Positions 5,921-53,576 of a stretch of DNA of 53,967 nt are shown here, one piece after another (the first letter of the stretch is position 1; each line of letters begins with the position of its first letter). Location: NCBI GenBank assembly GCA_965372535.1, contig CBDVCR010000002.1, positions 1 to 53,967 on the forward strand. The letters run 5' to 3'. This DNA is from an uncultured bacterium (GTDB lineage: Bacteria; Nitrospirota; Thermodesulfovibrionia; Thermodesulfovibrionales; JdFR-86). The notes beneath the pieces are model-generated. The model saw only the letters and a program-made list of their open reading frames with translations. It was not told the origin of the DNA and made no database searches. Both the position numbers and the translations under genes were made by a program.

Positions 5921-5930
5921 CCGGTACATA

Positions 5931-6100
5931 TTAAGGGGAGCATGAAATAGATTACATGACGAACATCGGCCTGGAACGAATCGATCCGGCTTCCCCCTTT
6001 GGAAAAGGGGGAATGAGGGGGATTTTTCTGAATATTCAAATCCCCCCTCGCCCCCCTTTGCTAAAGGGGGGTGTAAACTATTTTATGCCCTGAGTAATAA
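5931..6100 (+). mobile_element. MITE-like non-coding repeat, family A, copy 1 (full length)
   Basis: ~170 bp, near-identical to 34911-35080. Imperfect terminal inverted repeats (GAGCATGAAATAG ... CTATTTTATGCCC) and three internal GC hairpins. Confidence 0.7.
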
Positions 6101-6122
6101 TACTTAAAGGGGAGGACATTTT

Positions 6123-6839
6123 ATGATATTGGGCGTCAACATCGACCACGTCGCCACGCTCAGGCAGGCGCGCAAAGGCATGGAGCCCGACCCCGTAATG
6201 GCCGCGCCGCTTGCCGTGCTGGGCGGCGCCGACGGCATCACGGTGCATTTAAGGGAAGACAGGAGGCACATACAGGACCGGGACCTCCGGCTTCTGAGGG
6301 AAATCGTGCCGGTGGAGCTTAACCTCGAGATGGCCGCCACAACGGAAATGCTCAACATCGCCACTAAGACAAAGCCCGACATGGCCACCCTCGTGCCGGA
6401 AAAACGGCAGGAACTCACCACCGAGGGCGGGCTCGACGTATTCGAGCACAAGAGCAAGCTCAGAAACGCGATAAAGAAACTCCAGGGGGCCGGTATACCG
6501 GTGAGCCTTTTCATCAACCCCTACCCCGAGGACGTGGAGGTCTCGAAGGAAATCGGCGCGGACATGGTGGAGCTTCACACCGGGATGTACGCCGACGCCA
6601 GGGGCAAAAGGGTCCGTACCGAGCTAAAGCGCATATACGCCGCCGCCGCGGGCGCGCTTAACGCCGGGCTCACCATAAACGCCGGGCACGGGCTTAACTA
6701 CCGGAACGTCAGGCCAATAGCCGAGATTGACGGCCTCAGGGGGCTTTACATTGGGCACGGCATCATCTCCCGCGCCGTGTCCGTGGGGCTTGAGGAGGCG
6801 GTGCGGGAGATGAAGTACCTCATAGAGCAGTGCCAGTGA
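6123..6839 (+). CDS. pdxJ: pyridoxine 5'-phosphate synthase
   Basis: '[23 protein letters not shown]' and 'ELHTG.YA' motifs. AGGGGAGG SD upstream. Confidence 0.95.
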
Positions 6840-7210
6840 TTTACGGCGTCGGGGTCGATATCGTGCGGATAGACCGGCTCAGGAAATCGGTCGAAAGCGC
6901 GGGCAAGAGGTTCCTCGAACGGGTCTTCACCGATGCCGAGGTTGAGTATTGCCACCGCAAGCGCGACCCCTTCCCCTCCCTTGCGGCCCGCTTCGCCGCC
7001 AAGGAGGCGCTCATCAAGGCCATCACCGCGGAAGAGCACATATCCGTGAAGGACGTCGAAATCGCCGTCTCAGAAAACGGCAAGCCCTTCGTCATTGTCG
7101 CGGGCAGGCTCGATGGGATTTTCAGGGAGCAGGGCATCGGCGCAGCCCACCTGAGCCTGAGCCACGAGAAGGAATACGCCGTGGCAAGCGTGGTGCTTGA
7201 GAAGGAATAA
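6830..7210 (+). CDS. acpS: holo-[acyl-carrier-protein] synthase
   Basis: '[14 protein letters not shown]' and '[10 protein letters not shown]' motifs. GTG start at 6830 or 6836, overlapping the pdxJ stop. Confidence 0.9.
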
Positions 7211-15572: not shown

Positions 15573-16445
15573 TCATACGGTATAACCGAGTTTTTGCATG
15601 GTTTGGCCGATGTATTTCATGGCTCCGTCAACTCTGCCCTTCGGCAGGGACAGGTAGTTGTTAATACTGGGCTTTATTCCCTTGCGAATCGTGACAATCC
15701 CATCCTCAATGCCCTTGTCATGGTCAAACTTATGATAATCGATTACCGCGGGCTCGCAGGGAATGCCAAGGTAATCAAAAAGGGCGCCGAGTATGCCTTC
15801 CGGTTTTGTAACGAGGTCTTCATAGCGCATCTCAAACGCCGCCCCGGACCTGCATACGCCGGTGCTTTTCATCTTCCCGACCTGCTCCGCCCAGAAATTG
15901 GCGTATCCCGCAAACCTGTCGTCAAAATTATTCCTCGATACGTATTGGTCAGGCACGTGGAAGTGGCGCCTGTAAAGGGAACAGGCAACGTCCAGCCCGT
16001 TTCGGTAGATGAAAACGAATTTCGCTTTTTGCTCGAACAATTCGCTTAGAACATCCACGTAATCGACATGGTCCGGGGTCTTGTCGGCCCAATAGACCTT
16101 ACCTTTTGATTGCGCGTAATTCATAAAGTAATAATCTATGTAATTACGCGTCATCTTAAACACATGGTCCTTCTCAAACCCCATTGATTCCAGCCCTTCC
16201 AGGGCTTCCCTGTTTGAGAGCATCTTCAATAAGTCCACTATGAACTTCGACTCCGGGGGGCAGGCTATCTTGCTGTGGGAGTCAAGCATTCTCCTTAAAA
16301 GCGAAGTGCCCGACCTGTAGCATCCGATTATGAAAATAGGCGGGTTAGGGCTATAATCGGCCCTGCCCTCGAAAACGACTTTTTTCGAGGGCATGAGAAG
16401 CTTGATATTATAATAAAGCTTTTGATATATGTCCCTTATATTCAT
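15573..16445 (-). CDS. sulfotransferase (intact)
   Basis: 5'-PSB loop 'IFIIGCYRSGTSLLRRML' and a 3'-PB-like 'FVFIYRNGLDVACS'. AT-rich. Confidence 0.8.
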   Translation of the reverse strand: MNIRDIYQKLYYNIKLLMPSKKVVFEGRADYSPNPPIFIIGCYRSGTSLLRRMLDSHSKIACPPESKFIVDLLKMLSNREALEGLESMGFEKDHVFKMTRNYIDYYFMNYAQSKGKVYWADKTPDHVDYVDVLSELFEQKAKFVFIYRNGLDVACSLYRRHFHVPDQYVSRNNFDDRFAGYANFWAEQVGKMKSTGVCRSGAAFEMRYEDLVTKPEGILGALFDYLGIPCEPAVIDYHKFDHDKGIEDGIVTIRKGIKPSINNYLSLPKGRVDGAMKYIGQTMQKLGYTV

Positions 16446-16516
16446 TCTGTATTTACCTCAAATTATCATTAGCCGTGAAACCTCGCAATTTTATCACGAT
16501 ATGCATGCTTTTGTTA

Positions 16517-17161
16517 TCAGCAGTCAAGGTTTTTTCTGAACCTATAGCATTCTCTGGTTTCCTTTTCGATGCGCATGCCTGCTTTCTTATAAAATGATAT
16601 TGCTCTCTCGTTACCTTTCATGACCGACAGGCGATAAGTATTGATTCTATTCATGCATAAAATTCCATTGAATTTATTGAGCATATGCAGTGCAATCCTC
16701 TTTCCTTTGAGTTGAGAGTCAACTGCGATGGACAAAAGACTGAAATCATGTTTTGGTAAGCTGCAATTATTTCCAGTGCGCTTCATGCGGGAGCGAAGTG
16801 CGGCTACAACATGAGAAATTCTGTTGAGCATTCCCCTACGTACAATCGCAGACCGTATAAATGCAAGCACAACCCTATAACAGCAAAACAGAAAATTTTT
16901 CCTGAAAAAACGGGACCGGGCAAATTCAATATGTTGCCCCCCAACTATGAACCCTATCATTCGGCCATGCCTGAAAGCCCCAATGCTCAATTTATTGTAT
17001 TCAATCAATTCCTTATAATAACGCTTTATAAGCTCAGTCCCAAGCGCTGTGAGGAAATATTCAGGGAATGCCGCCTGGTGCAACTGTGCGACCTGAAAAG
17101 CATCATGAGTGTCGAGGAAGCTAAACGCAATGGTATCTTTTTGCATTGGCGTGCTCTCCAT
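16517..17161 (-). CDS. GNAT-family N-acetyltransferase
   Basis: Motif A-like 'LLSIAVDSQLKGKRIALHML' and 'NERAISFYKKAGM'. Confidence 0.7.
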   Translation of the reverse strand: MESTPMQKDTIAFSFLDTHDAFQVAQLHQAAFPEYFLTALGTELIKRYYKELIEYNKLSIGAFRHGRMIGFIVGGQHIEFARSRFFRKNFLFCCYRVVLAFIRSAIVRRGMLNRISHVVAALRSRMKRTGNNCSLPKHDFSLLSIAVDSQLKGKRIALHMLNKFNGILCMNRINTYRLSVMKGNERAISFYKKAGMRIEKETRECYRFRKNLDC

Positions 17162-17188
17162 TATTTTCCATTCACTACCATTAGCATT

Positions 17189-18274
17189 TCACCTGGTAAG
17201 AGGGATGTCCGTAATTATATTCTTTCTGTATTTTTTTCGTATGATAAAATCCCATATACCCTTGATATACCCCATGCCGTAGCCGAAATGAATAGTAAAA
17301 AAAACAGAAGGCAACACAAAAAAATATTTTAAGCCTCTCCTGATTGCGATAGAAGATGAAAAAAATATATTAGCGGCAACGTACAGAAACAGTAACAAAA
17401 GAAACGGCCACAGAAATACCTTCCATGCAAACGACAGTATTCCAAGGGTTATCGAGCTCGCCACAAGGGTCGGCGGCATTATCTGCCTGAAAGTAAAAAC
17501 TCCTCTGGTTTTCAAGGCAACTAGCGGCTTGAAGTAGCCGTACTGGAAATACATCTTTCCAAGCTTGGAAATCGTATCCCTCGCATGATAATATGATACG
17601 ATGTCGGGTACAAGGAGGATTTTCCCGCCATTTTTCAGCAACCTCATGTTCAACTCATCGTCCTGGTTTCTTATCATGTCTTCGTCAAATACCCCTATTT
17701 CATTAAAAACCTCCTTCCTGTAACACCCAAAAGGCACGGTATCCACCAGCCTGGGCTTTTCAGAGCCTATCCTATAATAAGCATTGCCCGCGCCGAAAAA
17801 ATGAGAAACAGCCAACGCTATGGACTCGGCTGTATACGTATTGTCTCCAGGCAATATAACCCATAGACCTCCAACATTGTCCACATCATGTTCCTGCAAA
17901 TATTTGACGCATTTTGGAATATAATCTTTATTGTAAATACTGTGGGCGTCAAGCCTGATTATTATTTCGCCTTTGGCATTCTCGATGCCTATATTCAGGG
18001 CCGCTGGCACTGTTTTTTTCGGGTTGTCCATGAGCCTGATGAACGGCCATCTGCCGGAGAACCCCTTGATTTTTTCTCTTGTACCATCGCCGCTCATGCC
18101 ATCCATTACTAAGACTTCAAGTTTGCTCTTGGGATATTCAGTGTTCACAGTTGAGTCCAGACATTTGTCAATGTGCTTCTCTTCATTACGGCATGGAATA
18201 ATAACCGTTATAAAGGGCAGTGCCCCGTCATGCTTGTTTGCAGGTTCACCTGTCTTCATGCAAGTCTTTTGCAT
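17189..18274 (-). CDS. glycosyltransferase family 2 with C-terminal TM helices
   Basis: 'ITVIIPCRNEEKHIDKCLDS', 'VLVMDGMSGDGT', 'IIIRLDAHS'. Confidence 0.85.
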   Translation of the reverse strand: MQKTCMKTGEPANKHDGALPFITVIIPCRNEEKHIDKCLDSTVNTEYPKSKLEVLVMDGMSGDGTREKIKGFSGRWPFIRLMDNPKKTVPAALNIGIENAKGEIIIRLDAHSIYNKDYIPKCVKYLQEHDVDNVGGLWVILPGDNTYTAESIALAVSHFFGAGNAYYRIGSEKPRLVDTVPFGCYRKEVFNEIGVFDEDMIRNQDDELNMRLLKNGGKILLVPDIVSYYHARDTISKLGKMYFQYGYFKPLVALKTRGVFTFRQIMPPTLVASSITLGILSFAWKVFLWPFLLLLFLYVAANIFFSSSIAIRRGLKYFFVLPSVFFTIHFGYGMGYIKGIWDFIIRKKYRKNIITDIPLTR

Positions 18275-18277
18275 ATA

Positions 18278-19201
18278 TCAAATATACACCCTTCCATAAT
18301 TGCGCCTGAGATATTGAATTGTCCTATCGGATATCACAGTTCTCTTTAACCTCTTGAAGCCGCCGAACCCTGCCAGGACGCCTTTTATCGCTGCAATGAA
18401 CTCGCCTTTCCTTATTGAAGCAGCAAGGAGGACAAGACTCCAGAAGCACGTATTTATGACAAAAGGAAGAGCGGGCAAGTATTTATAGTTTATCCAGATT
18501 TTATTTCTTATCGAATAATACATGTATCCGCTTCTTACGCGGTTCAAGGAATTCAAGTGCGGATAGTGTTCAATAAATATATCCGGACAGTAAAGTATGC
18601 TGTAGCCCTTTTCGATTATGCGGTAAGACAGGTCCAGCTCTTCCGCTCCAAAGAACAAATCTTCCTGATACAAGCCACAGTCCTCATAGACTTTTTTTCT
18701 CGCAGCATGCCCTCCGCCCAGATAATAGCTGACATATTGGGACATGTCCACGATATCGGGATTCTTTTTCACTACGGCCCTACGAAAAGGAACTCTCACT
18801 TTCTTTTCATGATGCCCGTCAATATCAACAATTTTAAACGCAATCAACCCTACATCAGGAAATGTATTAAAGACATGAGTTATTTGTTCAATAGAATTAT
18901 CAAACCTGAAAGCGGCATCATCGTCCAATGTTATCAGAATATCACCCTTCGCCTTCTTGATAAGAACGTTCCTGCCGCCCGCAACGCCGAGCGGCTTGCC
19001 GGAGGTTATGCACCTGATTCTGGGGTCGTCGTATTTTCCGGCGACTTCCCCGCAGATGCCATGCCCGGAATTGTCATCGAGCACGATTATTTCAATATTA
19101 CTATACGATTGAACCAGTATGCTGCCCAGGCACCTGAGAATATCCTCGGGGCCTTCATTGGTTGCGACCAGGAAGCTTATCAACGGCTGGTTCGTCTTCA
19201 T
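18278..19201 (-). CDS. glycosyltransferase family 2
   Basis: 'ISFLVATNEGPEDILRCLGSILVQSY', 'IIVLDDNS', 'ILITLDDDA'. Confidence 0.85.
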   Translation of the reverse strand: MKTNQPLISFLVATNEGPEDILRCLGSILVQSYSNIEIIVLDDNSGHGICGEVAGKYDDPRIRCITSGKPLGVAGGRNVLIKKAKGDILITLDDDAAFRFDNSIEQITHVFNTFPDVGLIAFKIVDIDGHHEKKVRVPFRRAVVKKNPDIVDMSQYVSYYLGGGHAARKKVYEDCGLYQEDLFFGAEELDLSYRIIEKGYSILYCPDIFIEHYPHLNSLNRVRSGYMYYSIRNKIWINYKYLPALPFVINTCFWSLVLLAASIRKGEFIAAIKGVLAGFGGFKRLKRTVISDRTIQYLRRNYGRVYI

Positions 19202-20408
19202 TTCCTTCTCCTTTTAATTTATACGACGATATTAACATGCCGATTACGACCCAGAGAAAAGAGTTCGTCCCGAAAGAAAAAAACAAGAGGAATATAACCA
19301 GTAGAATAAACATCTGGTTCCACGGGTTCATGACCTTCAAGACGGCCGGAGTTTTCCTTTCATTAATCAATACCCAGAATGTCGCAAAAATAATAACCAT
19401 GAATAACAGCGCACCTATGACGCCGGAGTCTACGAGGGTTTCGAAGTATGTATTATGAGAATAATGTCCAAGCGCGCTCTGGGAAGTCCTGAGCCCGTAT
19501 CCGATGATAATCTTGTTGTCGAGTGTTTTTTCATAAAGCTCACTCCAAAAAATGGTCCTCGAACCGGAAGGAATGTCAAAAACCCTGATTCTCATGACAT
19601 TGAAGGGATTGACATCAAGCAGAAAAGTTATGGTCACTAACGATATGGAAATGCCGAGGACGGTCTTCGGGATGAAACGCAAGCTCTTTAAATCGAGCCT
19701 GACCAACCTCAGCAAAACCATGAGTATGGAGCTGATGAGGATAACGAAGTATATGGTCCTTGAAAACGCCAGAATCAAAGAGGCCGTCACCAATAAAAGA
19801 CCGCCGTATTTGACTGATTTTCTCATCTCGACCTGCATGCCGCACAGGAGGGAAAGGGTCATGAACAGCGAGAAAAAATTGGCGTCTCCCGGCAGTCCGC
19901 TCAACCTCAGATAGCCGCTCTTGTCAAGCCCGTACCCCAGCCCTCTCCAGAGGTCCGAATCATGAAGGATACTATGTATTTTCAATTGGCCCATGTAATA
20001 AAATATCAGGGATATAATTGCGAACAGGACGCCGATGAGAAAAACGGTCGAGTTTATTTTCCTGAAATCACGCACGGAAAGAGGAATCTTGGCCAACAGC
20101 AGCAATAAAATGAAATTTCTCGCAAATTGCAGATACAAAGTCGTCGCGCTTTTCGGAGTAATGGAAATATACGCACTTGTCCCGCACCAGAGGAAAAATA
20201 TAAAGTACGCAAGTATCGGAGAAATATAGAGGAAGGAAGGGAACCTCCTGATGGAATTGCCCCTGGAAAAATACAATGCAAAGTATATAACACCCATGAC
20301 TATTACGATGTCAGCGGGATCTATCTTTATGCCAATATCAAAATAAAAGCCCTGCAGGTTATACGCTGTAAAAAGAAGAACAACAAAAATAATGGAATTA
20401 TTATTCAT
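19155..20408 (-). CDS. O-antigen polymerase/ligase-family membrane protein (Wzy_C type)
   Basis: About 10 TM helices and 'GHYSHNTYFETLVDSGVIGALLF'. ATGA-type overlap with the upstream gene. Confidence 0.8.
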   Translation of the reverse strand: MNNNSIIFVVLLFTAYNLQGFYFDIGIKIDPADIVIVMGVIYFALYFSRGNSIRRFPSFLYISPILAYFIFFLWCGTSAYISITPKSATTLYLQFARNFILLLLLAKIPLSVRDFRKINSTVFLIGVLFAIISLIFYYMGQLKIHSILHDSDLWRGLGYGLDKSGYLRLSGLPGDANFFSLFMTLSLLCGMQVEMRKSVKYGGLLLVTASLILAFSRTIYFVILISSILMVLLRLVRLDLKSLRFIPKTVLGISISLVTITFLLDVNPFNVMRIRVFDIPSGSRTIFWSELYEKTLDNKIIIGYGLRTSQSALGHYSHNTYFETLVDSGVIGALLFMVIIFATFWVLINERKTPAVLKVMNPWNQMFILLVIFLLFFSFGTNSFLWVVIGMLISSYKLKGEGNEDEPAVDKLPGRNQ

Positions 20409-21461
20409 TTCTTATGTCCCGGCTTACTTTGGCCATAAACCACACGCATTCTCTTCCTGATAAGAAACAGCTTGATCTGAATCCAGAAAAGTTTTCTGTT
20501 ATTCACGTAATGAAACAACCGTTTATAATAACTCCATAATGTACACTTATAATGCATAAGATAAGCATAAGAAACACAAAAAAGCTTATTCCATTTTTTC
20601 GCTTTACTTAAGAACCATTTTTCGTATCCATAGGCCTGAAGACTATGTCCCAGAACTGCCTCAACAGCCACGCCCTGCCATATTGGAAGTTCTCTCTTCC
20701 AGCCCTCCGTTCGCTTAATGTCAGGGGGTTTGTCGAATAACGCGTGTATGCCTTTTTCTTTCCCGCTCACATTAAAAAATGTATTTTCATCGCTTGCTCT
20801 TTGCGCTACAAAGGGAACGTCCAGGAATCTGAGAACATCCTTTATCCTGTCGACAACGGAAAAGCACAAGTCCTCATACCGTACTTCTGTCATCCGGATG
20901 CCGCTAACCTTCTTCATGTCATCAGCCATCATCATGTAATTCATCCAGGTCCTTGCCATGAATACCACGTTGCCTCTGCCCATCTGTTCCTGCACCAAAT
21001 AAGGTGTCTTGAAGCGGAGCATGGAGTTTACAACAGCCCTCGGATCGCGGAAGATATGGATAAATTCAGCCATGGGAAAGAGGTGGAGCAATATCCGATA
21101 GTAATATATCAATGCGCCGTTTTTAATTAGCACAACGCTAAAAGTCCGGTCTTTTAACTTCGAAAAATTCCGGGCGATGCTCTCCATCAAGCTTTTGATA
21201 CCTTTGCCCTTGTTGCCCTCCGCGATAGCATACAACCATTCATCGTCAAATCCAAGGTTGTCTATTTGATAGTCAAGTTTCATTAAGTTAAACAAATCTT
21301 CAGTGCCCATTTTTCTTAAGTTATCGTCGCCCTTGGCTATTAAAAGTTCAGGCAGCCTGAACTCCGGCATCACAAGTGTGTCCGGGGAATACATGGATAG
21401 TTGTCTTGCAAAAAAAAGTAGAACCCGAACGCGAATTATATAGAAGAAACACAAACCTCAA
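20405..21461 (-). pseudogene. sulfotransferase interrupted at a T8 homopolymer (possible phase-variable gene or homopolymer sequencing error)
   Basis: TTG start at 21461, 6 nt after AAGGAGG, gives 'MRFVFLLYNSRSGSTFF' (5'-PSB loop). The frame is lost at T8 (A8 on +, 21410-21417). The rest, including 'IHIFRDPRAVVNS' (3'-PB), continues in ORF 20405..21454. One T fewer would give a continuous 351-aa protein. Confidence 0.75.
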
Positions 21462-21552
21462 CCCTTGCCTCCTTTTACGTTTTAAGAGCAACCCTTGCCT
21501 CCTTTTACGTTTTAAGAGCAACCCTTGCCTCCTTTTACGTTTTAAGAGCAAC
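21459..21552 (-). repeat. perfect tandem repeat, 3.1 x 30 bp
   Basis: The unit on the coding (minus) strand is TGCTCTTAAAACGTAAAAGGAGGCAAGGGT. It spans the wzx stop, an SD and a TTG. Confidence 0.95.
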
Positions 21553-22812
21553 TTTGGTCTTTCCCTTATTTTGCAGGAGAAAGAGATGCCATACGTTCAG
21601 CAAAATTAGGCTTACCGCCGTGACACAAGCCGCGCCCACCGCGCCGAAAGCCCTGATGGCAAAAAAGTTTCCGACGGCGTTCCCCCCGGCGACCAATCCC
21701 GTGGAAAAGGCAAACTGGCGCTCCTTTCCCGACATCAAAAGCGCAGATCCAACTATCCCAGCAGCCGCGTTAACAAACTGCCCCACCGCGAGAATTCTCA
21801 AGAGAACGGCACCTTCCGCGAATTTCGGACCGAAAATAGCCAGCAGATGCTGCGCTCCTAAAACCATTATTATAAACAGCGGCAAAGTGCCGACAGTGGA
21901 CCATTTAACCACTTTACGCATAATCGCCTTGAACTCGCCGGGCCGGTTCCCGTGATACGCGGAGGCCAACATCGGCGCAGCCAGGGTGTTTATCGCCAAT
22001 AACAGAAAAACGTTCAGAGTAGCAATCCGGTTTGCGGCGCTGTAAAGCCCGACCGTGTCCATGTTCACCATGGCCCCGAGCATCAGCACGTCGGTTCGGA
22101 CAATGATTATCTTACTCGCTTCTCCTAACAGCATGGGCAGGGCTATCGCCATCCATTTGCGGATATTGAACTCCGGGGGGGCGCTTCTCCCCTGCTTGGG
22201 AAGTCTCCTGCACAGCAGGACGACGCCTGCCAGGAAAACGAACAAAGCGGCGCCCGCGTATATCAGCAACGCATCGGTAGCGTTATCTGCGGCGAAAACA
22301 TATACACCTAAGATCACAAGCACCGGAAGGACAATGTCATCGGGGATAATGCTCTCCTTTGCGCATTGTAAACTTCTCAGGGCTCCGCGGCGCAGATTGG
22401 CGAAGGTCAATAGAGGTAGTAACAATGAAGCATACTGCAGGCTCCGAGCCATGTCTTGGGACATGGGTATTGCATGGGCAACTCCCCAGAGCGCCAGGGC
22501 CGTCAGGGTTACGCTAACAAACGCAACACCGTGCGCCGTTATAATAGACCCCTTCATCAGGCCCCACCTTTTCTGCTCGCGATACTCCGTAACGAAACGC
22601 AATAGGGCTGTAGTCCACCCGAGCGGCATAACAAACGCCAGCAATCCCGCAAGGGCGACCGCGTAGCTGAACATCCCGAACCCCTCTTTTCCAAGCACGC
22701 GCGCTATGACCGCGTGCATCGAAAAAAGCAGCCCGGCCCCCAGTACCCGGAGCAGGAAGGCCTCGACCGCACCGCGGCGCAAGCGCATGAGGGCGCTCTG
22801 TTCAGCGTCCAT
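21535..22812 (-). CDS. wzx: oligosaccharide flippase (Wzx / MOP superfamily)
   Basis: 425 aa, about 12 predicted TM helices, with a polysaccharide-biosynthesis-protein-like N-terminus. Confidence 0.85.
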   Translation of the reverse strand: MDAEQSALMRLRRGAVEAFLLRVLGAGLLFSMHAVIARVLGKEGFGMFSYAVALAGLLAFVMPLGWTTALLRFVTEYREQKRWGLMKGSIITAHGVAFVSVTLTALALWGVAHAIPMSQDMARSLQYASLLLPLLTFANLRRGALRSLQCAKESIIPDDIVLPVLVILGVYVFAADNATDALLIYAGAALFVFLAGVVLLCRRLPKQGRSAPPEFNIRKWMAIALPMLLGEASKIIIVRTDVLMLGAMVNMDTVGLYSAANRIATLNVFLLLAINTLAAPMLASAYHGNRPGEFKAIMRKVVKWSTVGTLPLFIIMVLGAQHLLAIFGPKFAEGAVLLRILAVGQFVNAAAGIVGSALLMSGKERQFAFSTGLVAGGNAVGNFFAIRAFGAVGAACVTAVSLILLNVWHLFLLQNKGKTKVALKT

Positions 22813-48683: not shown

Positions 48684-48973
48684 GGGGGGGGAGGTAGGGG
48701 GTTGCTTCCTGAAACAAGAAAATTAACGGATTAATAAATTATGATAATTTCAAACATAAATTCGCAGCGAGGACTTCTTCCTGAACTTTGCAGGGTCAGA
48801 GGGGTGAAAAAACTGCGGAGTAGCAGTGTAAATCAACAGGGGAACATGGAAGTGGCCCTGTATGCCTGCAGGAAGAGCTATTTATCTTGATAATATTGGA
48901 ATTCATGTGCTAATCTTTTCCATGATAAATAAACAATTTTCCATAAAATTCAGTGCTTATAGGGCTTTTTTGA

Positions 48974-49894
48974 ATGCTTGACCCAGTTGAATTATTTCCA
49001 GAAATTCCCAATTTATATCAATTCCCGAGCGTGCATGCAGGGATGCTATATGATGAAGAACGGGTGGCAAAATATTCAGCAGCTATCAAACAAGTTATAA
49101 AAAAGGGCGATGTTGTGGCAGATATTGGCACAGGAACAGGACTTCTTGCATTTTTATGCTTAAAGGCAGGTGCAAAGAGGGTGCATGCTATCGAACGATC
49201 ATCAGCAATAGATTGGGCCAAACGAATTGCCGACAAGAATGGGTTAAGCGATAGAATTATTTTTCATAAGCAAGATTCGCGAGATTGCGATCTTCCGGAG
49301 AAGGTTAATGTGGTAGTGAGCGAACTTATTGGTCACATTGCTTTTGAGGAGGGAATGGCCGAATCGCTTTTCGACGCGAGGGAAAGGTTCCTTGTGCCAG
49401 GTGGCGTCTTGGTGCCGGAAAAAGTAGATTTAAGAGTGGCACTTGTTGAAGAAAAGGAGGTTTATCCAGAGTGTATAGATTGTTGGCAAGATATAGGAGG
49501 AATTGATTATTCACCTATGCGTGAAGAAGCGGTTAAGGCATGTTATTTGTCCAATTTAAAAGACCGTGATCTTTTGTCAAAACCAAAGACTTTTTTTAGG
49601 GCGGATTTCCAAGCAAGAAGGCCGTTAAATCTAAAAGGAAAACATTCATTTGATGTCTGTCGTGACGGGAAAATAAATGGGATTGCTTTATGGTTTGAAT
49701 CATGTCTTTCTCCTACTGTCACACTTTCTTCAGGTCCTGGGACACGAACGCACTGGAAACAATGCTTTGCGCCGCTAACAGAAGCGATTCATGTAAGTAT
49801 GGGTGATAACGTTTGCGTTAATATCGATATGCAATTACGCACTAAAGAAAATGATTCGTTTCGAATTATTTTTAGCGTTGAAAAGAAAGATTAA
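48974..49894 (+). CDS. protein arginine N-methyltransferase (PRMT)-like SAM-dependent methyltransferase
   Basis: 'HAGMLYDEERVAKY', motif I 'VVADIGTGTGLL', 'AKRVHAIERS', double-E loop 'VVVSELIGHIAFEEGM', THW loop 'THWKQ', plus a full-length beta-barrel region. Confidence 0.85.
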   Translation: MLDPVELFPEIPNLYQFPSVHAGMLYDEERVAKYSAAIKQVIKKGDVVADIGTGTGLLAFLCLKAGAKRVHAIERSSAIDWAKRIADKNGLSDRIIFHKQDSRDCDLPEKVNVVVSELIGHIAFEEGMAESLFDARERFLVPGGVLVPEKVDLRVALVEEKEVYPECIDCWQDIGGIDYSPMREEAVKACYLSNLKDRDLLSKPKTFFRADFQARRPLNLKGKHSFDVCRDGKINGIALWFESCLSPTVTLSSGPGTRTHWKQCFAPLTEAIHVSMGDNVCVNIDMQLRTKENDSFRIIFSVEKKD

Positions 49895-49908
49895 TTCAAA
49901 GGTAAAAA

Positions 49909-51642
49909 ATGCCAAATCCAGAAACATTTGAGGTGTTTGATTTACTCGATAAATACAAAGGTCGCTTAAAAACGATAGGGTTTTTGAAGGGGAGTTCACT
50001 TAAAGATATTGAAGATAAATTAAAAAAGTTAATGGGATTATTTCCAAAAGGCGTAAAGGATAAAGAAGAATCATTGGACTGGCATGAAGCACATGAAATA
50101 GGGCGAGACTTATGGCGCCAATTGATAAGCGCTGCGATAAATAGTATTGATGAAAATTCCAAGGGAAATTCGAAGCTTTTTGAATATCTCGATGACGCAA
50201 CAAAATTTGAAGATTTATTATATGGACTGGACCCATACTATAGAGACCACACATTGCATTCGTTATGGGTTTATTTTTTAGGAGACCAACTGTTAAATAA
50301 TGATTTAAAACATGTTTATGAGCAGCTAAATTGGTACTTATTCAATGATATCAAAAGAGATGAGGAGAAGTATCAATATAAAACAGAATTGGTGAATTTT
50401 TCAAAAATAAAAAAAGAGCTACTTTGTAATGAAGTGAATAAACATAAAGATGCAATTTGGTGTATTATCGCGCTGTGTCATGATCTGGGATATTCTCTTG
50501 CCAAATTAAATAGGCTCAATGCAAGTGTCCAAAAGGTATTAGAATATTACGATGTACCTGACTTCAGGCATGTTGGATATTCGTTAGATATTGAGCACCA
50601 ATACCTTATGTCACAGTTTCTCGAATTGATGTGCATGGATGTACGTATTGAGCCTAGCGAGAAATATGATGACCCAAAAAAAATAACCCGAGGAGCAAAG
50701 AAATGGCTATCTGCTTGGAATGATGCAAACAATGGTAAATATAGCGACGATGAACGTAAGGAAAAAGTAAACAGCCTTTCACAAAGAATCCCAAGAGAGT
50801 TAGAAAATAAAATATCAGTTAAATGCTATAAGGATGACTCAACATACTGGCGATTATGTCGAGCACTAGAGAAGAAGGAACATGGAATATTAAGTGCGTA
50901 TTTAATTTATAAAATTCTTGGCATTTTTGCAGAAAGTTCAGTGCGAGGGCCTGCGGAAGAGTGGGGTCTTGACGATGCGGAAACGCAACGCAATATAATT
51001 AGAGGCGATATTCTTTTTGCAATTGCTCAGCATGGATTCGATTTTGCTCATCTAAATCAGTTAGGTAGTCTCGCTGACCTTCTAATAATTGCTGATGAAT
51101 TAGAGGAATTTACTAGATACGGTAGACAATTGGCATCACGAAAATATACCGCTACGACCGCAAAAACATCAATAGAATTTAGAAATCCCCAAAATAATGA
51201 GGGAATTAAGCCAGGACAGGATATCGAGATAGATATTGCTTATTATTGTAAGCATAAGCAGGAAGAACATTTTCTTGATTTTTTTCGTAGAAAAGCAGAA
51301 AAACGATTATGTAGTATCTATTCCCTTAAGCCAACACGAGAAGAAAAGGCAGAGGAGGAAAAGGATAATTATTGCACCATAACAAGCATTAAAATGAATA
51401 TGAAGTGGGAAGACCCAAAAGATGAGACAAACAAAAAGGAATATTGGTTTAAATTTTCCAGTGATGGCAAACTTTGGGGCGGTTTGCCAGAGTATAAATT
51501 AGACGACAGGGATAGTGAAATGCCGGAAGAAGGATATGAGCTAAAATCTTATGATGATGAACTCCGAGTTTATTATGATGGAAAAGAGATAAAATTAAAA
51601 AAATGGTTAGGATTAGATAAGTCGGATGTTGAAAAAGATTAA
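49909..51642 (+). CDS. HD-domain-like protein of unknown function (577 aa)
   Basis: 'RDHTLHSLWVYFLG' ... 'IIALCHDLGYSL' ... 'LLIIADELEEF' give H-HD-D spacing. I recognised no other domain. Confidence 0.7.
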   Translation: MPNPETFEVFDLLDKYKGRLKTIGFLKGSSLKDIEDKLKKLMGLFPKGVKDKEESLDWHEAHEIGRDLWRQLISAAINSIDENSKGNSKLFEYLDDATKFEDLLYGLDPYYRDHTLHSLWVYFLGDQLLNNDLKHVYEQLNWYLFNDIKRDEEKYQYKTELVNFSKIKKELLCNEVNKHKDAIWCIIALCHDLGYSLAKLNRLNASVQKVLEYYDVPDFRHVGYSLDIEHQYLMSQFLELMCMDVRIEPSEKYDDPKKITRGAKKWLSAWNDANNGKYSDDERKEKVNSLSQRIPRELENKISVKCYKDDSTYWRLCRALEKKEHGILSAYLIYKILGIFAESSVRGPAEEWGLDDAETQRNIIRGDILFAIAQHGFDFAHLNQLGSLADLLIIADELEEFTRYGRQLASRKYTATTAKTSIEFRNPQNNEGIKPGQDIEIDIAYYCKHKQEEHFLDFFRRKAEKRLCSIYSLKPTREEKAEEEKDNYCTITSIKMNMKWEDPKDETNKKEYWFKFSSDGKLWGGLPEYKLDDRDSEMPEEGYELKSYDDELRVYYDGKEIKLKKWLGLDKSDVEKD

Positions 51643-51660
51643 ACTTAAGAATTTTTTACT

Positions 51661-52047
51661 ATGAAGAAAATAGAAAAGAAACCATATGGATTTGAGCTGA
51701 TAATAGATTTACATAAATGTGACGTGTCTACATTTAACAGAGAAAGCCTTGACGCTTATTTTGCAAAACTGTGCAAGGCAATTAAGATGCAAAAATGCGA
51801 ACGATATTTCTGGGATGATGTTGGATTGCCAGAAGAGCAGAAGCAGACATCTCCTCATACAAAAGGGTCTTCGGCAGTACAGTTTATCCTTACCAGTTCT
51901 ATTGTTATTCATACGTTGGATTTATTAGAAGCTGTTTATATAAATATTTTTTCATGTAAAAAATACAATAAGGAGCTGGCAGTTAAGATTACAAAAGAGT
52001 GGTTTGTTGCAAAGGAAGTTAGAACGCATTTCATTGAGAGGATTTAG
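51661..52047 (+). CDS. SpeH-type (class 1) S-adenosylmethionine decarboxylase-like pyruvoyl enzyme, divergent
   Basis: Aligns by eye with prokaryotic AdoMetDC. 'YGFELIIDLHKC', 'GSSAVQFILTSSIVIHT' (canonical ...ISESHLTIHT) and 'INIFSCKKY' (canonical DLFTCG). Confidence 0.8.
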   Translation: MKKIEKKPYGFELIIDLHKCDVSTFNRESLDAYFAKLCKAIKMQKCERYFWDDVGLPEEQKQTSPHTKGSSAVQFILTSSIVIHTLDLLEAVYINIFSCKKYNKELAVKITKEWFVAKEVRTHFIERI

Positions 52048-52048
52048 C

Positions 52049-53413
52049 ATGTTGCTGACCAGACGAGAGCTTGATATCCCTGCAGTAAAAACTAATAAAT
52101 ACTTATTGAATTATTTTCGAGAAGAAGTTGAAAAAAATATTGAAGCTGATGAAATACCAGTACGATTTGCGGTAACACAAAGTGATTCGAATGTAAACAA
52201 ATGCGAATTAGGCATTCTTAAAAGAGCAAACCGTTCATATGCACATCGGCTGTCATCTATCTTTGATTTTACTCCGAGAGAAATCGAAAACACCAAAAAC
52301 TTTAATGCGGTGATGATAGTCCCCACTGGTATCGGAGCGGAGATTGGAGGTCATGCCGGAGACGCTACTCCAGCAGCAAGATTGTTGGCTTCAGTTTGTG
52401 ATACGCTGGTAACCCATCCGAATGTGGTAAATGCTTCTGACTTAAACGAATTGCCAGCTAATGGGTTATATGTTGAAGGTAATACGCTGACACAATTGTT
52501 GATGGGCACGGTAGGTTTACAGAAGGTTAGAGCAAATCGAATACTTATGGTTATCGATAAACACCCGGATAGTAGAATTTCTGATTTTTCTATCAATGCT
52601 GTTTCTGCTGCTCGTAGTACATTGGGAATTGATTGTCAAGTAATTGAGATGGATTCGCCGATACTAATGCGTCCAGATTATTCTACTTCGGGTACTGCAG
52701 TGGGCAGAATCGAAGGCATTGAGCGGCTTTGCGAAGTGCTTAGCGCTCATAGAGCAGAATATGATGCTATAGCTCTGACTTCAATTATTGATGTGTCAAA
52801 GGAACTCATGATGGATTATTTTCAAAGTTCTGGAGATATGGTTAATCCGTGGGGTGGCGTGGAGGCAATGTTGACGCATGCGATAACAATGTTATTTGGG
52901 GTGCCAGCAGCACATTCCCCTATGTTAGAATCGACAGACGTATTAGAGATGCAACTTGGCATAGTAGATCCACGCATGTCTGCTGAAGCAATATCTACCA
53001 GTTTTCTTCACTGCATATTAAAGGGGCTTCACCAAAGTCCTCGAATTATCACTGACGGCCTATTATTTACGCATCCGAGTGTAATAACTGCAGCTGATAT
53101 ATCATGTATGGTGATACCAGATGGATGTGTGGGTTTACCGACACTTGCAGCGCTGGAGCAAGGAATTCCCGTAATAGCAGTAAAAGAGAATAAAAGCCGA
53201 ATGAAGAATGATCTTAAGGCACTTCCATTTAGGCCTGGCAAACTCTTCTTTGCAGAGAATTATCTCGAAGCAGTAGGTATAATGGTCGCCCTCAAAGCTG
53301 GAGTATCTTTAACTTCTGTACGTAGACCGTTAAGTCCAACAAAAGTTTCTACAGAAAAACGAGATAAAGACATGGCCAACCCAGAGATAGCTCAGATAAA
53401 ACTAAAAGCGTAA
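52049..53413 (+). CDS. DUF3326-like protein of unknown function (family name recalled from memory) with an ~85-aa N-terminal extension
   Basis: Start reset to ATG 52049 (GAGAGGA SD, 1 nt after the upstream stop). Conserved-looking core 'IVPTGIGAEIGGHAGDATPAARLLA...THPNVVNAS'. Confidence 0.65.
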   Translation: MLLTRRELDIPAVKTNKYLLNYFREEVEKNIEADEIPVRFAVTQSDSNVNKCELGILKRANRSYAHRLSSIFDFTPREIENTKNFNAVMIVPTGIGAEIGGHAGDATPAARLLASVCDTLVTHPNVVNASDLNELPANGLYVEGNTLTQLLMGTVGLQKVRANRILMVIDKHPDSRISDFSINAVSAARSTLGIDCQVIEMDSPILMRPDYSTSGTAVGRIEGIERLCEVLSAHRAEYDAIALTSIIDVSKELMMDYFQSSGDMVNPWGGVEAMLTHAITMLFGVPAAHSPMLESTDVLEMQLGIVDPRMSAEAISTSFLHCILKGLHQSPRIITDGLLFTHPSVITAADISCMVIPDGCVGLPTLAALEQGIPVIAVKENKSRMKNDLKALPFRPGKLFFAENYLEAVGIMVALKAGVSLTSVRRPLSPTKVSTEKRDKDMANPEIAQIKLKA

Positions 53414-53576
53414 TAAATAGTGACAGCGGAAAAATAAATAGCCTACATTAATCCGCAAGTCAAAATTCATTATGAAGGCAACAGTAGTAGGCGTTAGCCG
53501 CAAAAACCTGCCTGAGCGTCACAGGGCACGACTTTGTAACCCGCCCTCCGCGGGTTTCGTGAGAAAAAGGAACCTG

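What the first reader, a model, noticed from the sequence alone, without database searches (positions are those of the whole stretch)
51661..52047. SpeH-like pyruvoyl decarboxylase with Thr-Ser instead of Glu-Ser at the self-cleavage site
The 128-aa protein aligns by eye along its length with prokaryotic class 1 AdoMetDC. At the autoprocessing site the canonical '...ISESHLTIHTWPE' is '...ILTSSIVIHTLDL'. The Ser that becomes the pyruvoyl group, the downstream 'IHT' His and the 'FSC' Cys are all retained. The preceding Glu is Thr, and the following His is Ser. There is also a ~14-aa insertion ('GLPEEQKQTSPHTK') before the cleavage strand. Conserved catalytic residues with an altered site suggest an active enzyme whose substrate may not be SAM. 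An AdoMetDC paralogue acting as arginine decarboxylase is known in Crenarchaeota. No spermidine synthase is adjacent.
Basis: partly seen in the sequence, partly recalled or inferred. Interest (0 to 1): 0.6.

Follow-up and report, generated by a model that had tools for sequence, protein, structure and literature searches.

The report
Pyruvoyl decarboxylase wedded to DUF3326
This small gene encodes a self-cleaving decarboxylase related to S-adenosylmethionine decarboxylase that almost certainly no longer uses SAM; it always travels with an unstudied enzyme (DUF3326) as a mobile pair in bacteria and phages, and the pair probably makes a polyamine-like amine by an uncharacterised route.

Summary
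ORF 51661-52047 is an intact class-1b AdoMetDC-fold protein (Pfam 54 bits; TM 0.76-0.82 to T. maritima AdoMetDC). It has T78-S79 instead of E-S, keeps His84 and Cys99, and has an extended acidic loop.

Thr-Ser is not a new oddity. It is a published hallmark of SpeDC, the AdoMetDC-derived L-ornithine decarboxylases. The window protein is 40% identical to a validated SpeDC. However, it lies outside the SpeDC clade and lacks SpeDC's E77, G83 and F85.

It belongs to a large family (253 clusters at E<=1e-10). Ser/His/Cys are invariant and selection is strongly purifying (dN/dS 0.05-0.12).

The family's fixed partner is DUF3326. The two genes are adjacent in 56 of 60 species genomes from more than 15 phyla, are sometimes fused, and also occur inside phage head modules. 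In other phages DUF3326 instead pairs with a PSD-fold pyruvoyl decarboxylase.

Upstream partners vary: Septu PtuAB, a membrane protein, and methyltransferases. Here they are a PRMT-like enzyme and an HD-like protein, in a 4.8-kb low-GC island not found in 40 relatives.

Most likely it is an active non-SAM decarboxylase in a two-enzyme amine-building module. The substrate is unknown. This scan has met the same module before on other DNA.

The parts
51661..52047 (+). AdoMetDC-fold pyruvoyl proenzyme gene (128 aa). Cleavage is predicted between T78 and S79, giving a 78-aa beta chain and a 50-aa alpha chain.
   Evidence: Pfam 54 bits; fold; family invariants.
51892..51897 (+). Codons ACC AGT for T78-S79, the predicted serinolysis site. 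S79 would become the pyruvoyl group.
   Evidence: sequence. One search aligns S79 to T. maritima S63. S is 100% and T 90% conserved in the family. T-S sites are shown to self-process in SpeDC fusion proteins.
51910..51912 (+). His84 codon, equivalent to T. maritima H68 (processing and catalysis).
   Evidence: 100% conserved.
51955..51957 (+). Cys99 codon in the FSC motif, equivalent to T. maritima C83.
   Evidence: 100% conserved.
51811..51864 (+). Family-specific extended acidic loop, W51-D52-D53 to H66-T67-K68, just before the cleavage strand.
   Evidence: W51 is 94% conserved. The WDD segment is absent from SpeDC and canonical SpeD. The loop has low model confidence.
52049..53413 (+). DUF3326 gene (454 aa). 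Its ATG lies 1 nt after the decarboxylase stop and is preceded by GAGAGGA. It is the fixed partner of the decarboxylase.
   Evidence: PF11805, E 3.7e-90; adjacent in 56/60 loci; natural fusions; confident model, no known fold match.
49909..51642 (+). 577-aa HD-motif protein. This is the variable slot of the cassette, filled by cyclase-TPR or TPR proteins in sister cassettes.
   Evidence: One search finds a homologue in L022. One search gives HD / HD-CE-like features, which is a lead only.
48974..49894 (+). PRMT-like SAM-dependent methyltransferase, the first gene of the cassette in this subclade.
   Evidence: PRMT_C, E 3e-19. Conserved in L003, L004, L007, L009, L011 and L012.
48684..53470 (.). 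Low-GC island (32-44% GC, against about 59% for the genome). It is inserted directly after rny-ymdB.
   Evidence: The decarboxylase was not found in 40 related genomes.

Best explanation
The gene encodes a catalytically active, self-processing pyruvoyl decarboxylase of the class-1b AdoMetDC fold. It cleaves itself between Thr78 and Ser79, and Ser79 becomes the pyruvoyl cofactor. It belongs to a large uncharacterised clade next to the SpeDC L-ornithine decarboxylases and does not act on SAM.

It works as half of a fixed two-enzyme module with the translationally coupled DUF3326 protein. The module builds a polyamine-type amine.

Two orders of reaction are possible:
- (a) DUF3326 first makes an N-alkylated amino-acid conjugate (a 'carboxy-polyamine'), and the decarboxylase removes its alpha-carboxyl. 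This would parallel CASDH/CASDC and SAM to dcSAM. I slightly favour this order.
- (b) The decarboxylase turns a basic amino acid (Orn, Lys or Arg) into a diamine, and DUF3326 condenses it.

In this window the neighbouring PRMT-like methyltransferase probably N-methylates the substrate or the product.

Shown: the fold, the conserved catalytic residues, purifying selection, the kinship to SpeDC, the obligatory pairing with DUF3326, mobility, and presence in phages. Inferred: activity, substrate, order of steps and product.
For: Fold and catalytic residues:
- The fold and the Ser/His/Cys triad are confirmed, and the triad is 100% conserved over about 100 representatives clustered at 50% identity.
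- dN/dS is 0.05-0.12, with synonymous sites saturated.

Kinship:
- The protein is 40% identical (E 7e-27) to MBN1518199, a validated SpeDC ODC.
- It shares the published SpeDC diagnostics Gln74, Thr78 and Tyr93.
- It lacks the Glu-Ser and HTWPE-Pro marks of bona fide AdoMetDC, and the NCBIfam equivalog scores 24.7 against a cut-off of 75.65.
- T-S sites self-process in the SpeD-SpeDC fusions, as shown by the S229A mutant and SDS-PAGE.

Pairing with DUF3326:
- DUF3326 lies immediately downstream in 56 of 60 species genomes from more than 15 phyla.
- Fused ADC-DUF3326 proteins exist (P0170, P0144, P0235).
- 68 of 93 IMG/VR loci carry both genes. In L083 the pair sits between the portal and scaffold/major-head genes.
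- In 9 phage loci DUF3326 is instead adjacent to a PS_Dcarbxylase-family gene, a different pyruvoyl decarboxylase fold with a WGSQ site, and no AdoMetDC-like gene is present.
- In the pavABC cluster a DUF3326 protein (PavB) and a PLP decarboxylase-domain protein (PavA) are both required for a C5-N-C5 triamine, even though cadaverine is present without them.

Other partners that modify amines:
- GSP_synth ATP-grasp ligase, fusions to SET and GNAT domains, PRMT-like and other methyltransferases.

Host background:
- The host already has canonical SpeD, SpeE and a PLP Orn/Arg-type decarboxylase elsewhere.
Against: - No biochemical datum exists for any member of this clade or for this DUF3326 subfamily.
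- The DUF3326 fold matches nothing informative (best Z about 9, generic alpha/beta), so its chemistry is a guess by analogy with one preprint.
- The SpeDC-invariant residues E77, G83 and F85 are not shared, so substrate cannot be transferred from SpeDC.
- The variable upstream partners include Septu PtuA/PtuB in 14-16 loci, a polytopic membrane protein in 18 loci, and here an HD-like protein. These are odd companions for plain biosynthesis and hint at a role in conflict or signalling.
- Cyanobacterial and plant DUF3326 genes are reported in a ferredoxin context without a decarboxylase.
Confidence: 0.6

Rival explanations
1. It is simply a SpeDC-type L-ornithine decarboxylase that makes putrescine, and the DUF3326 neighbour is incidental or only a downstream consumer.
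For: - It is 40% identical to validated SpeDC MBN1518199.
- The Gln, Thr and Tyr diagnostics are shared.
- The SpeDC clade is nested among, or next to, this family in the tree.
Against: - It lies outside the 99%-supported SpeDC clade.
- It lacks the diagnostic Phe (Thr85) and the SpeDC-invariant E77, G83, S86 and E87, and it has a family-specific WDD loop.
- Validated SpeDC genes sit with speD/speE, hss or casdh/casdc. This family sits with DUF3326 in 56 of 60 loci and is sometimes fused to it.
- The host already has a PLP Orn/Arg-type decarboxylase next to speE.
Confidence: 0.15
2. The decarboxylase-DUF3326 pair is the conserved small-molecule arm (signal maker, signal destroyer or metabolite sensor) of a family of anti-phage or conflict systems. 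Its swappable effectors would be Septu PtuAB, a membrane protein, and HD-like or cyclase-TPR proteins. Phages would carry the pair as counter-defence or mimicry.
For: - PtuA-PtuB-ADC-DUF3326 forms a tight same-strand operon in 13-16 genomes of many phyla.
- One conserved pair combined with variable upstream genes is the typical layout of defence systems.
- R-M, PLD-nuclease and helicase genes flank some cassettes.
- The window copy is a small low-GC island not found in relatives.
- The window's 577-aa protein has HD / HD-CE-like features, which is a lead only.
Against: - PADLOC has no model hit for the decarboxylase, DUF3326 or the 577-aa protein.
- The wider neighbours are mostly housekeeping genes, with no clear defence-island enrichment.
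- In phage L083 the pair sits in the head-morphogenesis module. That fits polycation supply for DNA packaging better than immunity.
- No phage-challenge data exist.
Confidence: 0.2
3. It is a bona fide SAM decarboxylase paralogue (SpeH/SpeD) with a tolerated variant processing site.
For: The Pfam AdoMet_dc domain and the class-1b fold are present. Sources annotate homologues as 'S-adenosylmethionine decarboxylase'.
Against: - The NCBIfam equivalog scores 24.7 against a cut-off of 75.65.
- Identity to T. maritima AdoMetDC is only 22%.
- A very long branch separates it from validated and host SpeD.
- The E-S and Pro marks are missing.
- Tested T-S relatives failed to restore spermidine synthesis in E. 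coli speD mutants.
- There is no aminopropyltransferase partner in the locus, and a canonical SpeD already exists in the genome.
Confidence: 0.03
4. It is a non-catalytic, prozyme-like or structural AdoMetDC-fold subunit that regulates DUF3326 or the neighbouring proteins.
For: AdoMetDC-like domains without catalysis are known, for example the N-terminal domain of spermine synthase (matches) and the N-terminal domain of the HEC-07 defence protein.
Against: The exact catalytic and processing triad Ser/His/Cys, with canonical spacing, is invariant across the whole family. Degenerate domains lose these residues (V. vadensis example).
Confidence: 0.02

Closest known systems
SpeDC, the pyruvoyl-dependent L-ornithine decarboxylases derived from class-1b AdoMetDC (Li, Liang, Phillips, Michael, J Biol Chem 2023, PMC10407285), for example Ca. 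Sumerlaeota MBN1518199
   Same: - 40% identity.
- Thr-Ser processing site, with Gln four residues upstream.
- Tyr in the YINIFSC motif.
- Shared HTKG end of the pre-cleavage loop.
- Same size and fold.
- Spread by horizontal transfer across phyla and into phages.
   Different: - It lies outside the SpeDC clade.
- It has Thr/Ala instead of the diagnostic Phe after the His, Ile/Val instead of Gly before it, and no invariant Glu at -2.
- It carries an extra WDD-containing loop.
- It is never with speE, hss or casdc, but always with DUF3326.
- Its substrate is untested.
Bona fide class-1b AdoMetDC (SpeD/SpeH; T. maritima TM0655, PDB 1TLU/1VR7; TIGR03330)
   Same: Same fold (TM 0.76-0.82). Same Ser, His (+5) and Cys triad. 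Self-processing proenzyme of about 130 aa.
   Different: - 22% identity.
- E-S is replaced by T-S, and HTWPE by HTLD.
- The loop is about 12 aa longer.
- The equivalog HMM is not reached.
- There is no aminopropyltransferase partner.
PavA/PavB of the pavettamine cluster (bioRxiv 10.64898/2026.06.12.731819)
   Same: A DUF3326 protein and a decarboxylase encoded side by side. Both are genetically required for a secondary-amine-linked polyamine, N-(5-aminopentyl)pentane-1,5-diamine.
   Different: The decarboxylase there is a PLP, alanine-racemase-fold (carboxynorspermidine decarboxylase-like) domain inside a 1119-aa Rieske fusion, not a pyruvoyl AdoMetDC-fold protein. I did not measure the similarity of PavB to this DUF3326.
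CASDH/CASDC (carboxyspermidine dehydrogenase and decarboxylase) pathway
   Same: The logic proposed here is the same: a synthase makes an amino-acid-tailed polyamine, and a dedicated decarboxylase then removes the alpha-carboxyl.
   Different: Both enzymes are unrelated in fold to the pair here. The analogy is an inference, not a test.
Septu (PtuA ATPase + PtuB HNH nuclease) anti-phage system
   Same: In 13-16 other genomes the decarboxylase-DUF3326 pair is in one operon with PtuA/PtuB.
   Different: This window has no PtuA/PtuB. No published Septu type that I found includes a decarboxylase or DUF3326.

Membership tests
Pyruvoyl self-processing AdoMetDC fold (Pfam PF02675, class 1b) | Domain match above the gathering score, and the alpha/beta sandwich fold | tested here: met
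   54.2 bits against a cut-off of 25. TM 0.76-0.82 to 1VR7/1TLU.
Pyruvoyl self-processing AdoMetDC fold (Pfam PF02675, class 1b) | Processing Ser, His five residues downstream, and catalytic Cys in F-x-C | tested here: met
   S79, H84 and C99 align to T. maritima S63, H68 and C83. All three are 100% conserved in the family.
Pyruvoyl self-processing AdoMetDC fold (Pfam PF02675, class 1b) | Actual autocatalytic cleavage and pyruvoyl formation | not testable with these tools
   This needs SDS-PAGE or MS of recombinant protein and an S79A control.
Bona fide SAM decarboxylase (SpeD/SpeH, TIGR03330 equivalog) | Equivalog HMM score at or above the curated cut-off | tested here: not met
   24.7 bits against 75.65.
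Bona fide SAM decarboxylase (SpeD/SpeH, TIGR03330 equivalog) | Glu-Ser processing dipeptide, and the Pro of HTWPE that is fully conserved in bona fide AdoMetDC (PMC10407285) | tested here: not met
   The window has T78-S79 and H84-T-L-D. The host SpeD has ES and HTWPE.
Bona fide SAM decarboxylase (SpeD/SpeH, TIGR03330 equivalog) | Partner aminopropyltransferase in the locus | tested here: not met
   The neighbours are a PRMT-like protein, an HD-like protein and DUF3326. The genome's speE lies on another contig.
SpeDC (pyruvoyl L-ornithine decarboxylase) | Four diagnostic residues: Gln, Thr, Phe and Tyr (Fig. 8 of PMC10407285) | tested here: not met
   Gln74, Thr78 and Tyr93 are present. The Phe position is Thr85 (family: T 63%, A 22%; SpeDC: F 100%).
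SpeDC (pyruvoyl L-ornithine decarboxylase) | Placement inside the clade that holds validated SpeDC proteins | tested here: not met
   The SpeDC clade, which includes MBN1518199, has 99% SH-aLRT support and excludes the window protein. The backbone of the tree is poorly resolved.
SpeDC (pyruvoyl L-ornithine decarboxylase) | L-ornithine decarboxylase activity with no activity on Arg, Lys or SAM | not testable with these tools
   This needs an enzyme assay.
Known anti-phage defence systems (PADLOC-DB v2) | HMM match of the decarboxylase or its cassette partners to a defence-system model | tested here: not met
   There is no hit for the decarboxylase, DUF3326 or the 577-aa protein. The PRMT-like protein hits mad2 only through its generic methyltransferase domain.

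The most novel reading that the evidence does not exclude
The AdoMetDC-fold decarboxylase plus DUF3326 is a previously undescribed two-enzyme route to a polyamine-type molecule that moves between phages and bacteria. Phages would use it in head and DNA-packaging modules. Bacteria would have wired it, as a metabolite-making or metabolite-sensing arm, into immune operons such as Septu PtuAB, and in this window into a PRMT-like / HD-like cassette. That would link polyamine chemistry directly to anti-phage conflict.
Probability: 0.3. Interest if true: 0.85.

Novelty: new variant of a known kind. Interest (0 to 1): 0.62.

Why it matters
AdoMetDC-fold enzymes are currently known to act on three substrates: SAM, ornithine and arginine. 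This clade holds hundreds of sequence clusters from more than 15 phyla and from phages. It has the catalytic machinery of these enzymes but a different pocket, and it is locked to DUF3326, a domain of unknown function.

- Working out the pair's chemistry would assign a function to DUF3326, which is also present throughout cyanobacteria and plants.
- It would probably add a new polyamine-type pathway.
- It would explain why such a pathway is built into Septu-type and other mobile cassettes and into phage head-gene modules.
- On the practical side, current annotations of these genes as 'S-adenosylmethionine decarboxylase' are very likely wrong.

Tried and rejected
- **Sequence search against solved structures.** A single-sequence search found nothing meaningful. 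The family profile gave only weak, sub-threshold alignments to T. maritima AdoMetDC, which I used only for residue mapping.
- **DUF3326 structure.** A PDB sequence-profile search found nothing. Foldseek, VIA-wide and ESM Atlas gave only generic alpha/beta matches (Z up to about 9, TM up to 0.29) apart from DUF3326 itself. No function could be read from the fold.
- **Complex prediction of DUF3326 with the decarboxylase.** This returned 'no answer' (score 0.00 in two runs, controls not run). It counts neither for nor against binding.
- **INPHARED phage genomes.** There was no close homologue of either protein, only a 27% match in a 735-kb uncultured phage. The IMG/VR scan, by contrast, did find the pair.
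- **Defence-island enrichment.** I tallied 116 flanking proteins against Pfam and PADLOC. They are mostly housekeeping, with a few methyltransferases and type I R-M specificity subunits, so I make no enrichment claim.
- **Literature.** Searches for DUF3326, PF11805 or PF02675 with defence, Septu with decarboxylase, and pyruvoyl with anti-phage found no description of this pairing. HEC-07 has an AdoMetDC-like domain, but it is a different, fused, probably non-catalytic case.
- **Search for longer fused forms.** Only 8 hits came back, one with a GNAT domain.
- **ESM Atlas look-up of the recurrent membrane partner.** Only hypothetical proteins came back.

Full report
**The gene and the observation**

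ORF 51661-52047 (+) encodes 128 aa. It matches Pfam AdoMet_dc over nearly its full length (E 2.1e-14, 54 bits, cut-off 25). It scores only 24.7 bits against the NCBIfam SAM-decarboxylase equivalog, whose cut-off is 75.65.

An AlphaFold model built on 20 homologues (pLDDT 81) superposes on T. maritima AdoMetDC (1VR7, 1TLU) with TM 0.76-0.82 at 22% identity. A profile alignment puts S79, H84 and C99 on T. maritima S63, H68 and C83, and T78 on E62.

The strand reads VQFILT|SSIVIHTLD...VYINIFSC. The same genome's canonical SpeD (contig C89, 141 bits) reads IIAE|SHLSIHTWPE. The loop W51-K68 is about 12 residues longer than in canonical SpeD.

**Thr-Ser is already a published hallmark**

Li et al. 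[quoted passage not shown] SpeDC is recognised by four residues: Gln, Thr (before the Ser), Phe (after the His) and Tyr. Bona fide AdoMetDCs keep a Pro (HTWPE).

Their S229A mutant in a ...IETS... site, together with SDS-PAGE, shows that T-S sites self-process (alignment).

One hit of my searches, P0364, is exactly MBN1518199.1. This is the Ca. Sumerlaeota SpeD2 that they measured as an ornithine decarboxylase and that did not restore spermidine synthesis. It sits in a speD1-speE-speDC cluster. The window protein is 40% identical to it (E 7e-27).

**A separate clade next to SpeDC**

A search of 1.84 billion cluster representatives found 679 clusters at E<=1e-3 and 253 at E<=1e-10. Nearly all carry QF[IL]xTS[NST][IV]x[IV]H[TA]LD. 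A few at the bottom carry the SpeDC signature QFIETSSIxGHFSE.

In a maximum-likelihood tree of 126 sequences, SpeDC proper forms a 99%-supported clade that excludes the window protein. That clade sits among or next to the poorly resolved broad family. Validated and host SpeD lie across a very long, 100%-supported branch.

Column statistics over 97 representatives:
- S79, H84, C99, F75, F97 and G10 are invariant.
- Q74, T78, W51, N95, D16, C38 and R127 are at least 90% conserved.
- The SpeDC-invariant E77, G83, F85, S86 and E87 are not shared.
- The WDD part of the loop is family-specific, and the HTKG end is shared with SpeDC.

Among 120 close homologues (74-94% identity) the site and the loop are essentially invariant.

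Against homologues from Nitrospirota and Omnitrophota, dN/dS is 0.12 and 0.05. In further comparisons synonymous sites are saturated while pN stays at 0.07-0.17. This is a functional protein under strong constraint with its catalytic residues intact.

**The fixed partner is DUF3326**

The next gene (52049-53413) starts 1 nt after the decarboxylase stop, behind GAGAGGA. It is a DUF3326 protein (E 3.7e-90).

A scan of one genome per GTDB species found 60 loci. They come from Nitrospirota, Omnitrophota, Planctomycetota, Thermodesulfobacteriota, Acidobacteriota, Verrucomicrobiota, Bacteroidota, Pseudomonadota, Zixibacteria, Marinimicrobia, Nitrospinota, Poribacteria, Binatia and others, plus two DPANN archaea.

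DUF3326 lies immediately downstream, often overlapping, in 56 of the 60 loci. The exceptions are cut by contig ends (L011, L040, with a partial copy in L067) or have a truncated decarboxylase (L066).

Natural fusions of AdoMet_dc to DUF3326 exist (P0170, 562 aa; P0144; P0235).

DUF3326 itself models confidently (pLDDT 88, pTM 0.88). It matches no solved or annotated fold beyond generic alpha/beta layers.

**DUF3326 pairs with unrelated decarboxylases**

IMG/VR viral contigs hold 27 loci with the decarboxylase and 68 with DUF3326. Of the 93 distinct loci, 68 carry both.

In L083 the pair lies between the portal gene and the scaffold and major-head genes, downstream of the terminase. These are therefore real phage genes.

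In nine other viral loci DUF3326 has no AdoMetDC-like neighbour. It is instead adjacent to a PS_Dcarbxylase-family gene, a different pyruvoyl decarboxylase fold, with a conserved [WY]GSQ putative cleavage site.

The only functional data on a DUF3326 protein come from a 2026 preprint. PavB and PavA (which contains a PLP carboxynorspermidine-decarboxylase-like domain) are both required for N-(5-aminopentyl)pentane-1,5-diamine, although cadaverine is present in all strains.

So three unrelated decarboxylase types partner DUF3326. This is strong comparative evidence that DUF3326 chemistry is coupled to an alpha-decarboxylation and yields an amine.

Cadaverine alone did not suffice without PavA. 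In addition, AdoMetDC, PSD and CANSDC all classically act on amino-acid moieties whose side chain is conjugated to something larger. For these two reasons I slightly favour the order 'DUF3326 first, decarboxylase second'. This is inference only.

**Other partners and context**

Upstream genes vary among the 60 loci:
- Septu PtuA+PtuB (PADLOC E 1e-47 and 5e-56) in tight operons, 14-16 loci.
- A polytopic membrane protein of about 400 aa, 18 loci.
- A glutathionylspermidine-synthase-like ATP-grasp ligase with PspA and DUF2170, 3 loci.
- ParA / HD / CxxCxxCC genes, 2 loci.
- In the window's own subclade, a PRMT-like methyltransferase plus a variable 440-577-aa protein: cyclase-TPR, TPR, or here an HD-motif protein.

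Fusions of the decarboxylase to SET, GNAT, CxxCxxCC and a spermine-synthase-like domain also occur. Many of these partners modify amino or guanidino groups.

Partner type is clustered on the decarboxylase tree but has switched many times (15 changes).

Flanking genes beyond the operon are mostly housekeeping. PADLOC has no model for the pair.

I found no publication describing the pairing. A PSP comparative-genomics paper mentions AdoMet decarboxylase genes in PspA / ATP-grasp operons.

**The window copy**

The four genes 48974-53413 lie on one strand with gaps of 14, 18 and 1 nt. They sit in a 4.8-kb stretch of 32-44% GC, within a genome of about 59% GC, directly after rny-ymdB.

The decarboxylase was not found in 40 genomes of the same family and order. 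Its nearest relatives (85-92% identity) are in other phyla. This indicates recent horizontal acquisition.

The host has its own SpeD, and a SpeE with an adjacent PLP Orn/Arg-type decarboxylase. It has no arginase-fold enzyme. The island gene is therefore not needed for core spermidine synthesis.

**Verdict**

The altered site is a known SpeDC-type feature, not a novelty in itself.

What is not described in the literature I could search is this large sister clade and its obligatory coupling to DUF3326. I rate it a new variant of a known kind.

Earlier agents of this scan reached similar readings on other genomes. I re-derived the pairing, the Septu linkage and the phage carriage independently here. 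The PSD-type partner is my own addition.

The substrate, the product and any role in phage-host conflict remain open.

Noticed in passing
L102, L105, L106, L107, L109, L110, L111, L112, L113 (IMG/VR contigs), next to DUF3326 at about 5900-7200: DUF3326 is paired with a 240-272-aa PS_Dcarbxylase-family (pyruvoyl) gene that has a conserved [WY]GSQ motif, instead of the AdoMetDC-fold gene. In these loci the decarboxylase partner has been replaced by one from an unrelated fold.
   Followed up: partly
L083:5995-7353: In a phage contig the decarboxylase-DUF3326 pair lies between the portal gene and the scaffold and major-head genes, after the terminase. Phage DUF3326 copies (about 330 aa) lack the roughly 85-aa N-terminal domain of the bacterial ones.
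   Followed up: partly
L104:3939-4862: In one viral contig an ornithine cyclodeaminase / mu-crystallin family gene sits directly upstream of DUF3326, with ribonucleotide reductase downstream.
   Followed up: no
L021, L030, L033, L035, L043, L051, L068 and others (about 2.1 kb upstream of the decarboxylase): PtuA-PtuB (Septu) followed without a break by the decarboxylase and DUF3326. This four-gene operon recurs across many phyla. In L053, L054 and L061 the order is reversed.
   Followed up: partly
L056:8674-9897 and 17 other loci: A recurrent membrane protein of about 400 aa lies immediately upstream of the pair. It has 2 N-terminal and 3-4 C-terminal predicted TM helices around a soluble middle of about 170 aa. 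It has no Pfam or PADLOC match.
   Followed up: partly
P0220, P0395, P0203, P0222 (metagenomic proteins): The decarboxylase domain occurs fused to a SET domain, a GNAT acetyltransferase, a CxxCxxCC domain and a spermine-synthase-like domain.
   Followed up: no
L038 and L045 (upstream of the pair): A DUF2170 - PspA/IM30 - glutathionylspermidine-synthase-like ATP-grasp operon (yjf-like) runs into the decarboxylase-DUF3326 pair.
   Followed up: no
window 16000-22000: A second low-GC stretch (42-45% GC against about 59%) covers several minus-strand genes. It may be another acquired island.
   Followed up: no
G000 contig C91:9304-11058: The host's spermidine synthase gene lies next to a 385-aa PLP Orn/Arg/DAP-type decarboxylase gene. 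The canonical speD is on a different contig (C89).
   Followed up: no
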